The notes beneath the pieces were generated by a model. It ran no database searches. It saw only the letters and a program-made list of their open reading frames with translations, and was not told the origin of the DNA. A program made the translations under genes and the position numbers. A DNA stretch of 64,000 nt from assembly GCA_964016885.1 (NCBI GenBank), contig OZ024741.1:216008001-216072000 (forward strand), in the 5' to 3' direction. This DNA comes from Eledone cirrhosa. Taxonomy: Eukaryota. Positions 4,552 to 63,330 of this stretch are shown piece after piece (the first letter of the stretch is position 1; every line of letters starts with the position of its first letter).

Positions 4552-4984
4552 TATAAACGTTAGAATATGTGTAATAAGGCCAAGACAATGCAGATATGGA
4601 CATAGAAAGAAGAATGCAATAGTGAAAGATATTGATGAGAATTCGTCTTTCACCTTGAATTTATTTAAATGTCCTTAATTTTCGAGATAATATCTCTTCT
4701 TCGGAGGGAAGTAAAAGTCTCAGACCAGCGTCTAAATTTCCAATGAAGCCATGCTTCATTGGAAGCATGGCTTCATTGGAAGCATGGCTTCATTGGAAAT
4801 TTAGACGCTGGTCTGAGACTTTTACTTCCCTCCGAAGAAGAGATATTATCTCGAAAATTAAGGACATTTAAATAAATTCAAGGTGAAAGACGAATTCTCA
4901 TCAATATCTTTCACTATTGCATTCTTCTTTCTATGTCCATATCTGCATTGTCTTGGCCTTATTACACATATTCTAACGTTTATA
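4552..4984. repeat. Fold-back with arms of about 205 bp, derived from a PLE 3' end
   Basis: 4552-4757 is the near-perfect reverse complement of 4779-4984. The apex has a duplicated 17-mer, ggaagcatggcttcatt. The arm is homologous to 47370-47545. Confidence 0.95.
4829..4863 (+). ncRNA. Minimal type-I hammerhead motif, CCGAAGA core (mirror copy 4673-4707 on minus)
   Basis: cct-CCGAAGA-a-gagat/att/atctc-GAAA-attA-agg. Stem I is cct/agg, stem III is the palindrome AAUU, and the cleavage triplet is UUA. Confidence 0.7.
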
Positions 4985-5054
4985 TATATATATATATATA
5001 TACACAATCACACACACCCGTGTATATATATATATATATATATATATATATATA

Positions 5055-8000
5055 TGCTGAATGTCAGAGGCCTGGTGAAACTCAGTAACATGAGTAAAAT
5101 TTCCTACCTGGGAGACTTAGCCATAAGCAATCAAGCATTATGCTTGGCACTAACCGAAACGCACATGACAAGCAATATAGCGGGTGCAGAAATACATATA
5201 AATACATATACCGAAATACACTGTATTTCGTTCGGACAGGAAGGAGAGAACTCATGGTGGGGTTGCTCTGTATATCCGTGAAGATGTCACACCAATTGTA
5301 CTGTTGACACATTCAAACTCAGTCTGTGACACACTGATAGTACATATGAAGCAACTACAGACAGTAATATGTGTCACAGATCGGCCGCCCGATGCCCCCA
5401 GTCATGAGGGTAAATTTGAGGATAGCCTAAGTAGGATAGAAGAGGTCCTTGACAAACTGGACCAGGGTCTCAATATTCTACTGCTGGGAGACTTCAACCT
5501 ACCAAAGGTCAAATGGCCTGAGGGCCACCTCCTCCCTGGAATGACGTCAATAGAACAGAGACAGACGGAATCCCTGCTGGCCCTCACACACAGGCTGTTC
5601 ATGGAGCAAGCAATACTCCTCCCAACAAGAGGCGAAAATGTCCTGGACCTCTGTTTTACAAACAACGAAGTGCTCATCCACAATGTAAAGGTGACACCAA
5701 CAATTATCTCGGATCATAACATAGTAGAGCTAATGATATGTGGTCCAAGAGAACCAACAGAGACAAAACCACCAAGAAGTTCCGGGACGTTATCCAGCCT
5801 TAACTTCTACAAGGCTAACTGGAAAAAGATTAAGAGAGAAATCCGGAAGCAAACATGGAGTGAAAACACAAGACACTAACACACATTTTCAACACTTCAT
5901 GACAACGATACACACTATATGCAAAAGGTTTGTCCCGGAGAAAAAGGCAAACAGACACAAAAATCTTATTCCCAGAGATATGAAAATCCTTATGAGACGT
6001 AGAACCAAATTCTCAAACCAGTTGAATAGTCAACAAAACAAAAACAAGAAGGAATCCTATTTGAAATGTGCATTACTTGGCACCGAGATTGCACTCAAGC
6101 TTTCCCATGAGAATGAGAGGGCAAAGAAAGAGAACAGGGCCATAGAAAACATTAAAAAAAACCTAAGGGCTTCTTTAAATTTGCAAAAGAAACTGCCTCA
6201 GTACACTGCAAGATTGGGCCACTCTTCATTAACCGAAAACCCCCAAGAGATATGTGAAATACTGAACGAACAGTACAAAAGTGTGTTCACATGTCCACTG
6301 AGGCACATGCAAATAACGAAGCCAGAGGAGTTCTTTGATGCCACAACACTACATGAAGAAATGGCAACCATCAACCACATAGACATAACGGAGGAGGATG
6401 TGGTGTACGCCATTGATGAAATTAGAACAGACTCGGCTGCTGGACCTGATGGATTCCCAGCAGTTCTCTTAAAAATATGTAAGCGGGCCTTAGCAACTCC
6501 ACTGAAGATGCTCTTCAGAAGCTCCTTGGCTAGCGGTGTACTACCCAGGGAGCTGAAAGAAGGCACAATATGCCCTATCCATAAAGGAGGTAGCAGAGCG
6601 GAGGCCAAAAACTATAGGCCAGTCTCCCTGACGTCGCATATCAGTAAGGTCATGGAGCGAGTTGTCAGAAAGAAACTGATCACTTTCCTCGAGGAAAATG
6701 ACCGCCTGACTAGCACGCAACATGGCTTCCGCCCAGGAAGAAGCTGCCTTACACAGCTGCTACATCACTACGACTGGGTACTGAAACAACTACTAGACAG
6801 CTCACATGTGGACGTGATATATCTTGACTTTGCGAAGGCCTTTGACAAGGTCGACCACGGAATGATATGTCACAAACTACACGGACTCGGCATAACTGGA
6901 AAAGTAGGTGAGTGGCTGCATGACTTCCTAAGGGACAGAAGCCAGGCAGTCGCAGCAAATGGGGGCCTCTCAAAGGAAACACCAATAACAAGTGGGGTGC
7001 CCCAGGGGACAGTCCTGGGACCACTACTGTTTTTGGTGGCTCTCTCAGACATGCCCTCTGTAGTACATACAACAACATCCCTCACTAGCTATGCTGATGA
7101 CACTAAGGTAGCACAGGCAATCAAAAACCCGGCTGACGCTGCCCTTTTACAGTAGGATCTGGATGCCATATACAAATGGGCGGAAGTAAACAACATGCAG
7201 TTTAATGCTGGCAAATTCCAAGCCCTACAATACAAACCTCCAAACAAACCTGCAAACACAAATATAGTAGAACACAACTACACAGGACCAGGAGGGACCG
7301 ATATCCCCGTGTCAAAATCGATACGAGACCTGGGCATAGACATGAGCGATGATGCATCTTTTTCTTCACACATCATGAAAGTGGCGACAATGTACAGACG
7401 ACTAGCTGGCTGGATCTTGAGGACTTTCCGGACAAGAGATCGAGACACCATGTTGCCACTATGGAGGACATTTGTCCTAAGCTGCCTGGACTACTGCTCC
7501 CAGTTGTGGTCATCCCATAGTGTCAAACTAACCACGGAGCTTGAGGCAATCCAGCGAAGCTACACCAAGAGGATTGCCAAGATGAGGGAGACAAGCTACT
7601 GGGAGAGGCTAAAGGAACTGAACCTCTACTCCTTGGAACGAAGACGGGAGAGATACGCAGTGATCTACATGTGGAAAATCCTGGAGGGACTAGCACCAAA
7701 CTTTGGCATTGGGAGCTGGACCAACCGTCGAACAGGACGTCACTGTGTGGTGCCAAAGGTTCCGTCTTCCACATCTAGAATAAGGAGCAGGTATTGCAAT
7801 AGCCTGGGATTCAAGGGCCCTCAACTCTTCAACAAGCTGCCGAGGGATCTGAGAGATTTGCATGACGTGGAGGTGGATGTCTTCAAGAAACATCTCGACA
7901 CCTTGTTATCCAGGATCCCGGATGAGCCCACAGCAAGACACGAGGGAAACCTAAGGGCAGCAGCAACAAACTCCCTCTTACACCAGTGGCCAACCTATAC

Positions 8001-8080
8001 AGGCTGGAGATAAAATGTGTAGCAACAAGGGCGGTGCCCCAGCATGGCCTCAGTCGGATGGCTGAAACAGGTAAAAGAGT
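5055..8080 (+). mobile_element. Decayed CR1/L2-group LINE (APE endonuclease plus RT) inserted in (TA)n
   Basis: APE motifs: LNVRGL, LTETH, GDFNLP, LDLCF, SDHN. RT motifs: YRPVSLTS, QHGFRPGRSC, YLDFAKAFDKV, GVPQGTVLGPLLF, YADDTK. There are frameshifts and a stop at about 7153. Confidence 0.92.
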
Positions 8081-8109
8081 ATATATATATATATATATAT
8101 ATATATATA

Positions 8110-61730: not shown

Positions 61731-61769
61731 GCTAACAGTCTGTTTCACGCTGTTGGCGATCATCAGAGC
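61731..61769 (-). ncRNA. Hammerhead ribozyme inside a module with 300-bp-spaced direct repeats (61579, 61879)
   Basis: Minus strand: gct-CTGATGA-t-cgc/caaca/gcg-t-GAAAcag/a/ctgtT-agc. Confidence 0.8.
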
Positions 61770-62182
61770 AACGCTCTCCCCGTTTTCGCCGAAAATTATA
61801 GAAGACGGATTCTCATATAATTCCAGTAATAATCAGGAGCTGATTATACAGAGCGATTGCTGGTCTAACAAAAATTAAGTATTAGGATTGGTGCTCTGAA
61901 ATAGAGATGTGTACATGAATATATATGTATATATATACATATATATATTCATATATATATGTGTGTGTGTGTAAGAATGCACACCTACACACATATATAT
62001 ATACACATTATATATATATAGATACACACACACACATATATATATATATATATACATATGTACGTATGGGTTATATTGAACATGTTATGCTCGATATAAC
62101 CCATACGTACATATGTATATATATATGTGTGTGTGTGTGTGTGTATGTATATATATATATATATATATATATATATATATAT

Positions 62183-62357
62183 AATTCCATCCCGCCCGTC
62201 CCCTTAATCTATTTTATTTCTCATGCTTTCTTCTGATGACGGACTAGCGTCCGAAACGTTAAGACCCTCTTCCTGCTATATCAAGTGTTAACCTAATATA
62301 CACCTTCCATATACTGTACCGATTGTGTTGTTATTTCTGTTTACCTTTTACATACAT
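62183..62357 (+). mobile_element. HHR-bearing short element of about 175 bp between TA tracts (HHR 62229-62264)
   Basis: tctt-CTGATGA-c-ggac/tagc/gtcc-GAAA-cgtT-aaga. Paralogue of 38046-38225. Confidence 0.85.
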
Positions 62358-62477
62358 CTATATATATATATAAATATATATATATATATATAGTAATAAT
62401 AATAAAATTGAAGACTAAAATCCAAAGAGGGTTCGATAAGGAAAATATATATCAAATATATAAGAACCGAAGAGCAA

Positions 62478-63330
62478 ATATTTATTAAAATAACAGATTA
62501 AAGTTTAAGCAAAGAATCGCTGCTTTCACCCTTAACGGGATCTTCTGAAACTAACAAAGTCAATCTGTAAACGCAGAACTGGATATTTCAAAAAACGTTG
62601 CAACCGGAGGAAGACAGGAAGACGATACTTTGGTTCGTGGTAACGTTCGCTGGCAAAGAACGGGAAAAAACGAATAATACGTCATTAATAGGAGCGGTGA
62701 AAAACAATTACGCGCAAAGACAGAACCACCATTATGGTATAAAAGAGGTCGTAGACTAATGTTCTCTTAGGTGGTGCATAGAGACGTTCTCTGGCAATGA
62801 ACGAAAAAACGAAGATAATAAGTGATATGTGGAGCGTGGAGAACAATAGCAAGCAAAGACAAAACCAGGTAAATGGTATAGCAGAAGTCGTAGACTAAAA
62901 TTCTAACTAGGAGACCAAATGAATCTCCGCTACAGAGTGAAAGCAACGATTCTTTGCTTAAACTTTAATCTGTTATTTTAATAAATATAGTATGTTGAGA
63001 GAGATATAGTGTGCCATCAATAAAACAAGGAAAACCACCAGTGTATGGAATCTATAACCTATGGAAGGCTGGGTAGACACAAAATAATTAAAGATATAAA
63101 TTAAAATGCATATACACACCTCTATAACTATAATATAGGCTATTCTATTTCAGTCAACAACTTCCAGGCGAAACAGATCTCTTTGGATTTGAACGCGTGT
63201 GTTATATATTTATAGAGGTGCATTTTAATTTATATCTTTAATTATTGTGTGTCTACCCAGCCTTCCATAGGTTAGAGTTTCCATGCACTGGTGGTTTTCC
63301 CTGTTTTATTGATGGCACACTATCTCTCTC
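62478..63330. repeat. Two adjacent inverted-repeat structures (62478-62530 / 62937-62989 and 62997-63127 / 63211-63330)
   Basis: Reverse-complement arm pairs are visible. An HHR-like remnant, CAGAAGA-t-ccc/gttaa/ggg-t-GAAA, lies on minus at about 62520-62550. Confidence 0.85.

What the first reader, a model, noticed from the sequence alone, without database searches (positions are those of the whole stretch)
4673..62550. About 20 hammerhead ribozyme loci in 64 kb, carried by short modules mostly inserted in (TA)n
Seen: type-I HHR folds with core, stem II, GAAA, short or palindromic stem III, an NUH site and a 3-4 bp stem I at 4829 and 10304 (each with a mirror copy), 10624, 19399, 33984, 38092, 46276, 47225, 47482, 48907, 49391, 61731 and 62229. 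Damaged or atypical versions lie at 13150, 24425, 30866, 38397, 52347, 61335 and 62520. They belong to many sequence families that look unrelated by eye, and most lie in non-coding modules within about 200 bp of a (TA)n tract. Established: PLE pseudo-LTRs carry minimal HHRs that are thought to cleave as dimers, and non-autonomous HHR retroelements (retrozymes) exist in animals. Inference: this genome has a dense, diverse population of ribozyme-bearing non-autonomous elements mobilised by PLEs into TA microsatellites, invisible to ORF-based annotation.
Basis: partly seen in the sequence, partly recalled or inferred. Interest (0 to 1): 0.9.

Follow-up and report, generated by a model that had tools for sequence, protein, structure and literature searches.

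The report
Hammerhead ends of truncated Penelope retrotransposons
The roughly 20 self-cutting-RNA motifs in this stretch are real sequence features, but most are the leftover tail ends of ordinary Penelope-type jumping genes that inserted cut short into TA repeats, and only three belong to small gene-less repeats that likely borrow the Penelope enzymes.

Summary
Observation confirmed. All 22 listed sites belong to real type-I hammerhead (HHR) families: 13 pass a variant-aware descriptor against 0.03 in shuffles, and the rest are damaged copies or fixed family variants. They form 19 insertions of 14 families, each ending in (TA)n. Eight families (13 insertions) run 5' into Penelope-like (PLE) RT/GIY-YIG ORFs, three of them inside the window, so they are 5'-truncated autonomous PLEs. 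Three families (483-bp, 307-bp and about 1.96-kb units) are ORF-less head-to-tail units with PLE insertion marks: two fixed 3' ends, inverted arms, TA target. Three families are unresolved. Sixty evenly spaced 10-kb samples give 75 HHRs per Mb, about 2x10^5 genome-wide; the window is about 2.7-fold above that. Dispersed PLE minimal HHRs (2014) and PLE-derived retrozymes (2020, 2026 preprint) are published, and this scan already reported PLE-marked retrozymes elsewhere in this genome. New here: the density, compensatory changes in one ORF-less lineage, and family-fixed non-consensus cores (U4A, A13C). No RNA or cleavage evidence was obtained.

The parts
4512..4980 (.). Family B two-arm (inverted) PLE-end insertion; HHRs 4704(-) and 4832(+), core CCGAAGA (U4C); left arm carries the tail (164 nt after the cut), right arm does not (120 nt)
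8110..9593 (+). Decayed 5'-truncated PLE ORF (RT + GIY-YIG) starting at (TA)15; its own HHR end not established
10059..10405 (.). Family C two-arm insertion; HHRs 10223(-) and 10307(+), U3-A8 core, palindromic stem III; family traced to a GIY-YIG ORF about 1.4 kb upstream of the HHR
10536..10822 (-). Family A2 module, canonical minimal HHR 10654 (cut 10627); old family with a non-repeating 5' extension of at least 686 nt, ORF not reached
13092..13179 (-). Family A copy truncated inside the HHR
19357..24032 (-). PLE-2: 727-codon open RT/GIY-YIG frame (21849-24032), 2.4-kb 3' region, family D HHR 19440 (cut 19403), ending at (TA)10; 98-99% identical to 5.1-kb copies elsewhere
24352..24650 (.). 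Family C two-arm insertion, damaged HHRs (24457 -, 24500 +)
30824..30907 (-). Damaged family-A-like HHR module
33893..34085 (+). Family L 3' end, HHR 33987-34036 (U.U at 10.1/11.1, palindromic stem III); the family unit is about 1.96 kb, head-to-tail, with no PLE-like ORF
37999..38223 (+). Family A solo PLE end, HHR 38096 (cut 38123); long copies run into a GIY-YIG ORF
38277..38477 (+). Family I insertion (inverted tail arm plus HHR 38396-38434; family core CCGATGA, mutated here); family traced to a GIY-YIG ORF about 1.2 kb upstream
46221..46533 (-). Family H two-arm insertion, HHR 46357-46279 with long stem II; long non-repeating 5' extension, ORF not reached
47072..47326 (-). Family E solo PLE end, HHR 47262; long copies run into an RT + GIY-YIG ORF
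47371..48860 (-). PLE-3: truncated RT + GIY-YIG ORF with its family B HHR 47513
48897..49656 (+). Family F retrozyme-like 1.6-mer of a 483/484-bp ORF-less unit; canonical HHRs 48911 and 49395
51360..52483 (+). PLE-4: truncated ORF end followed by family J HHR 52352 (stem I damaged here) and (TA)n
61061..61481 (.). Family S two-arm insertion; HHRs 61245(-) and 61338(+), U3-A8 core with family-fixed GCAA (A13C); ORF not traced
61576..61918 (-). Family G retrozyme-like unit of about 307 bp with terminal redundancy; HHR 61766 (cut 61734)
62184..62358 (+). Family A solo PLE end between two TA tracts, HHR 62233
62393..62992 (-). Family K PLE end, HHR 62547-62507 with family-fixed CAGAAGA core (U4A) and a long stem III; traced to a PLE-2-like ORF

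Best explanation
The window holds 19 insertions from 14 hammerhead-bearing families that end in (TA)n; 13 are 5'-truncated 3' ends of autonomous Penelope-like elements and 3 are ORF-less head-to-tail units, all likely written in by PLE target-primed reverse transcription. Inferred mechanism: the PLE GIY-YIG endonuclease nicks (TA)n, and the RT starts at one of two fixed sites 45-225 nt downstream of the HHR cut. It usually stops within a few hundred nt, which leaves a short HHR-bearing 'module'. When both strands prime, an inverted two-arm insertion results, with the tail on one arm only. The ORF-less families F, G and L carry the same marks, so they are likely copied in trans by PLE proteins from an uncleaved multimer or a re-ligated circle. 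The ribozymes are under structural selection in at least one ORF-less lineage (shown by covariation); whether and when they cleave in vivo is untested.
For: Continuity with ORFs: A 2 of 30 loci; B 11 of 29 non-window loci match PLE-3 over 1.5 kb, and one 624-aa ORF has Pfam RVT_1 plus GIY-YIG; C 4 of 29 loci fetched with the far-5' query extend 1.4 kb or more, into the GIY-YIG region; D three long copies 98-99% identical to window 19341-24120; E 4 of 29; I 4 of 29; K 11 of 29; J in the window and in L181. Fixed 3' ends into TA in 24-29 of 28-29 copies per family, with two end classes in B, C, D, G, H, I and L. F and G: 0 of 28 and 0 of 29 copies have a PLE ORF inside the shared 5' extension; the upstream sequence is the unit's own tail. 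F ends at unit positions 169 and about 278, and 13 of 27 distinct non-window insertions have a forward arm longer than one unit; inverted arms in 18 of 30 F loci and 17 of 30 G loci; in 6 of 6 further two-arm F loci one arm is long-ended and the other short-ended. L: L464 repeats the tail at 1962-nt spacing with no PLE-protein match. G lineage: C3-G8 changes to U3-A8, and three stem II pairs change on both sides (7 sequences, 96% of cells paired, against 37% or less when slid). Published anatomy matches: 5' truncation, inverted copy and tail (PMC8557442), two RT start sites and both-strand cleavage (PMC11167929).
Against: Each family was judged from the best 28-30 hits of a capped search, so a rare ORF-bearing parent of F, G or L is not excluded. 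L rests on one wrapped copy. A2, H and S are untraced. In the unbiased sample only 14 of 45 hits fall in traced autonomous families, 13 in ORF-less ones (7 of them one array), and 18 are unassigned or untraced, so the window's 13:3 ratio may overstate the autonomous share genome-wide. 5' ends do not pile up at the HHR cut (0 of 39 G arms and 0 of 28 F arms within 3 nt), and there is no A>G excess in F or G: no genomic sign of in vivo cleavage or editing. MFE folds of the isolated motifs mostly do not give the hammerhead shape, as expected for 2-4-bp stems.
Confidence: 0.85

Rival explanations
1. One reading: the modules are mainly non-autonomous HHR elements (retrozymes) mobilised by PLEs.
For: True for F, G and probably L. 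In the sample, 13 of 45 hits belong to ORF-less tandem-type families, and 42 of 45 have no same-strand PLE ORF within 3 kb upstream when searched with the window's PLE proteins.
Against: 8 of 14 window families continue into ORFs; lack of a nearby ORF is what 5' truncation produces.
Confidence: 0.1
2. F, G and L are not trans-mobilised RNAs but satellites or deletion relics of PLE ends spread by DNA-level duplication.
For: Tandem units exist (L084 array; F dimers and trimers); PLE termini can seed tandem repeats (discussed in 10.64898/2026.07.22.740005).
Against: Copies are dispersed with unrelated flanks, fixed 3' ends into TA, variable 5' ends and inverted arms with complementary end classes; compensatory HHR changes.
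Confidence: 0.04
3. Chance matches in AT-rich, hairpin-rich sequence.
For: Short stems; no Rfam hit; MFE z-scores mostly unremarkable.
Against: 13 against 0.03 in the window, 45 against 0-1 in the sample, 41 of 63 against 0 of 12; of 18 single-change cores tested only U4C recurs, together with the compensated U3-A8.
Confidence: 0.01

Closest known systems
[quoted passage not shown]
   Same: Type-I minimal motifs with palindromic or absent helix III, an extra nt after A9 and the U3-A8 variant; many heterogeneous families per genome; mostly single motifs ascribed to truncated PLEs; opposite-strand pairs 100-700 bp apart.
   Different: Density about 75 per Mb (roughly 2x10^5 extrapolated), against about 2,000-9,000 per genome reported there (different descriptors); truncation shown here family by family; U4C, U4A and A13C cores fixed in whole families.
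Metazoan non-LTR retrozymes (Cervera and de la Pena 2020, PMC7229834, passages and Discussion read; Li, Clavereau and Pollet 2026, 10.64898/2026.07.22.740005, parts 1-3 of 5 read)
   Same: ORF-less head-to-tail units of 300-480 bp with a type-I HHR (F, G); monomers dispersed; PLE origin and mobilisation proposed.
   Different: F and G show PLE insertion marks directly (two fixed ends, inverted arms, TA target); the parts of these papers read argue from co-occurrence and pLTR similarity. circRNA and cleavage were not shown here. L (about 1.96 kb) is larger than the 51-972 bp range in the preprint.
EN+ Penelope-like elements, Penelope/Poseidon and Neptune-type (Craig et al. 2021, PMC8557442, passages read; Frangieh et al. 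2024, PMC11167929, parts 1-2 of 4 read)
   Same: RT with C-terminal GIY-YIG, partial tandem pLTR, inverted 5' copy, tail, AT-rich or microsatellite target; non-autonomous head-to-tail PLE derivatives known in Chlamydomonas.
   Different: Tails here are about 35-150 nt rather than 30-40 nt, and 3' regions reach 1-2.4 kb. Clade labels here rest on the Cys-rich linker motif only, with no tree.

Membership tests
Type-I hammerhead ribozyme | Conserved core with stems I-III and an NUH site, above chance | tested here: met
Type-I hammerhead ribozyme | Covariation in stems and in the 3-8 pair among homologous copies | tested here: met
   G lineage, 7 sequences, 4 pairs changed on both sides; related sequences, so few independent events
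Type-I hammerhead ribozyme | Self-cleavage at NUH as monomer or dimer | not testable with these tools
   needs an in vitro assay or RNA ends; genomic 5' ends show no pile-up at the cut
EN+ Penelope-like element (families A, B, C, D, E, I, J, K) | Single ORF with RT and C-terminal GIY-YIG, continuous with the HHR end | tested here: met
   Pfam RVT_1 plus GIY-YIG for B; atlas GIY-YIG clusters at 0.96 for PLE-2, no Pfam hit; A, C, E, I, J, K by tblastn and motifs, for A, C, I, J and K only the C-terminal part seen
EN+ Penelope-like element (families A, B, C, D, E, I, J, K) | 5' truncation, inverted 5' copy, tail with two 3' ends, partial tandem pLTR | tested here: met
   family A showed no inverted copy in 29 loci
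EN+ Penelope-like element (families A2, H, S) | ORF continuous with the HHR end | tested here: inconclusive
   long non-repeating 5' extensions, ORF not reached
Non-LTR retrozyme (F, G) | ORF-less head-to-tail unit of a few hundred bp with a type-I HHR per unit | tested here: met
   G is mostly 1-1.3 units long, with a dimer in relative L218
Non-LTR retrozyme (F, G) | Expression as linear and circular monomer RNA | not testable with these tools
   no RNA holder listed
Non-LTR retrozyme (L) | Short (<1 kb) tandem unit | tested here: not met
   unit about 1.96 kb; better called an ORF-less PLE derivative

The most novel reading that the evidence does not exclude
This genome is a natural experiment on what the PLE hammerhead is for. 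ORF-less RNAs of 0.3, 0.5 and 2 kb are copied round a circle by two PLE reverse transcriptases primed from both strands of a (TA)n break, and they keep compensated ribozymes. Meanwhile autonomous families amplify with cores fixed at U4C, U4A or A13C, which implies either protein-assisted tolerance of these cores or that cleavage matters only for the non-autonomous passengers.
Probability: 0.3. Interest if true: 0.7.

Novelty: new member of a known kind. Interest (0 to 1): 0.42.

Why it matters
It sets a baseline for this genome: an HHR near (TA)n is by default a truncated PLE end, at about one per 13 kb, so local counts of 10-20 are not special. It gives a simple test (follow the 5' extension; look for a wrap onto the tail) that separates such ends from true retrozymes. 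The ORF-less families add genomic support for PLE-driven retrozyme mobility, which was proposed in print but not shown from insertion anatomy in the parts of papers read (searches). The fixed variant cores make the open question of HHR function in PLEs directly testable.

Tried and rejected
Rfam cmscan: no HHR family at gathering score; the 150 of 320 E-value rows shown were miRNA and similar artefacts on TA repeats and palindromes. First descriptor without the extra nt after A9 found 1 site. Idea that cDNA 5' ends stop at the HHR cut, suggested by a few copies: rejected with queries lying downstream of the cut, 0 of 39 G arms and 0 of 28 F arms (34 G and 21 F stretches fetched, covering most but not all of the 41 hits of each), and no peak in off-target copies of the other families (family E rows there were swamped by TA matches). 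Long 'stem I extension' at 46385-46437: it is the inverted arm, not RNA structure. The module at 9860-10040 as the pLTR of PLE-1: not shown, as relatives match only from about 9860. PDB search and pairwise BLASTP of PLE-2 were uninformative. A parent PLE for F or G: none among about 1.96 Mb of held loci. By-sequence look-up of F and G in earlier findings: nothing shown. Supplements of the papers were not read; those of the 2026 preprint could list further variants or species.
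Full report
Setting. The window is G000:C2:216008001-216072000 of a 3.0-Gb animal assembly. It is rich in microsatellites (124 (TA)>=5 tracts). 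Earlier scan notes call the genome a cephalopod's; I did not test that.

1. Observation. A strict type-I descriptor finds 7 HHRs against 0.03-0.07 in global and local dinucleotide shuffles. A variant-aware version finds 13 against 0.03. To avoid circularity I asked how many core+stem II+GAAA half-motifs also have stem III, NUH and stem I: 41 of 63 real against 0 of 12 shuffled; swapping stem-I arms gives 82 of 1175. Of 18 single-change and 3 double-change cores tested on window plus sample, only canonical (43), U4C (8) and compensated U3-A8 (7) recur; uncompensated changes at 3 or 8 gave one hit in all. The nine listed sites outside the descriptor are damaged copies or fixed variants of real families. 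The 22 sites are 19 insertions of 14 families. TA lies downstream of the cut: window median 158 nt; sample 36 of 39 within 250 nt against 20% of random positions (p=1e-16). Rfam does not detect these motifs.

2. Density. Sixty evenly spaced 10-kb stretches (599.6 kb) hold 45 HHRs against 0-1 in five shuffles: 75 per Mb, about 2x10^5 genome-wide by extrapolation. This is rough: hits are clustered and the descriptor misses some families. The window's 13 in 64 kb is about 2.7-fold higher; single 10-kb samples reach 4-8.

3. What the modules are. The window has four PLE ORF remnants (8110-9593, 21849-24032, 47883-48860, 51360-52150), and three end in a listed HHR. For each family I fetched the 30 best genomic copies with 1.5-kb flanks and followed the shared 5' sequence. 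A: 2 of 30 reach a GIY-YIG frame. B: 11 of 29 match PLE-3 over 1.5 kb, and a 624-aa copy has RVT_1 plus GIY-YIG. C: none of the first 30 reached an ORF, but 4 of 29 from a far-5' query did. D: 98-99% identical 5.1-kb elements with partial tandem and inverted copies. E 4 of 29, I 4 of 29, K 11 of 29; J in the window and in L181. These eight families account for 13 of 19 insertions. A2, H and S have long non-repeating 5' extensions that I could not follow to an ORF. All families tested end at fixed sites 45-225 nt after the cut, mostly in two classes, directly in TA. The window's mirror pairs have the tail on one arm only (B 164/120 nt, C 135/69 nt). This is the published PLE anatomy (PMC8557442 passages; PMC11167929 parts 1-2).

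4. The non-autonomous minority. In F (483 bp) and G (307 bp) the sequence upstream of the HHR is the unit's own tail; none of 28 and 29 copies has an ORF in the shared extension. F arms end at unit positions 169 or about 278, and G arms at about 27-43 or 62-66. Inverted arms occur in 18 of 30 F loci and 17 of 30 G loci, with complementary ends in F. Arms run past a second HHR (F 4 of 28, G 2 of 40 in the unbiased set), so the template was an uncleaved multimer or a circle; these two are not distinguished here. L is a unit of about 1.96 kb with a wrap in L464 and no PLE-protein match. Diverged G relatives keep the HHR through C3-G8 to U3-A8 and three compensated stem II pairs. G relatives at 73-74% identity have units of about 315-320 nt, so G is probably an older branch of the 310-nt family in earlier notes of this scan; this is inference, and the sequence look-ups returned nothing. 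In the unbiased sample 14 of 45 hits fall in traced autonomous families, 13 in ORF-less or tandem ones (7 in one array), 4 in an untraced family and 14 in none. Both classes are therefore substantial genome-wide.

5. Mechanism. Shown: fixed 3' ends in TA, variable 5' ends, inverted arms, and ORF continuity or wrap. Inferred from PLE biochemistry (PMC11167929: both strands cut at AT-rich sites, RT starts at two internal sites, HHR cleavage protein-assisted and not needed for insertion in vitro): endonuclease nicking of (TA)n, priming at two sites, frequent early stop, and trans-use of ORF-less RNAs. Not shown: expression, cleavage, circles. Against in vivo cleavage leaving a genomic mark: no 5'-end pile-up at the cut. 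No editing signature.

6. Comparison. PMC4209133 already reports thousands of heterogeneous single minimal HHRs from truncated PLEs, opposite-strand pairs and U3-A8, with low in vitro activity. PMC7229834 and the 2026 preprint define animal retrozymes and propose PLE origin and mobilisation; the former counts 126,247 HHRs in axolotl, and the latter saw cleavage in 1 of 9 constructs. PMC3088659 (passages and section 8) lists U3-A8, A6C, the U10.1-U11.1 mismatch and a viroid U4C; I saw no U4A or A13C in the text read, and its figures were not visible. PMC8967140 (passages) lists Penelope among abundant coleoid repeats. The numbering follows those papers; clade labels such as Neptune-type rest on the Cys-rich linker described in PMC8557442, not on a tree.

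7. Verdict. A real feature of a known kind, at unusually high density, with a mostly ordinary explanation for this window. The remaining interest lies in the PLE-marked ORF-less families, already noted by this scan on other DNA of this genome, and in the family-fixed variant cores. Interest 0.42.

Noticed in passing
window 62507-62547 (-) and 61338-61367 (+): Non-consensus HHR cores fixed across families: K has U4A in 49 of 53 held copies, S has A13C in 17 of 17, I has U4C in 29 of 29 (25 of them otherwise intact), B has intact U4C in 37 of 47.
   Followed up: partly
window 19145-19335: Very abundant palindromic two-arm insertion (family N; 27 BLAST pieces in 600 kb) holding only the 3' half of an HHR; none of 70 distinct held copies has its own core (the single pattern match was the neighbouring family D ribozyme).
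   Followed up: partly
   Followed up: partly
L084:456-3400; L372:1939-2551 and 6323-7345: A 479-482-bp HHR-bearing tandem family (7 HHRs in L084), 10 of the 45 sample hits.
   Followed up: partly
L464 (G000:C8:46104600-46112600): The family L unit has a second hairpin with a partial hammerhead-like sequence about 100 nt upstream of its HHR.
   Followed up: no
window 3655-4483, 16560-16680, 46620-47057, 17202-17557, 52990-53164, 62998-63331: Other palindromic or two-arm modules, most beside TA tracts, without a detected HHR; possibly further PLE ends.
   Followed up: no
window 5200-8013 (+), 24650-28180 (-), 41700-42300, 54360-57850 (+): Decayed LINE copies (APE endonuclease, RT, zf-RVT).
   Followed up: no
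window 31600-33900 (+): LTR-retrotransposon-like remnant (aspartyl protease and integrase hits), interrupted by the family L module.
   Followed up: no
window 1003-1332 (-): A further GIY-YIG-like PLE fragment (tblastn with the family A ORF piece).
   Followed up: no
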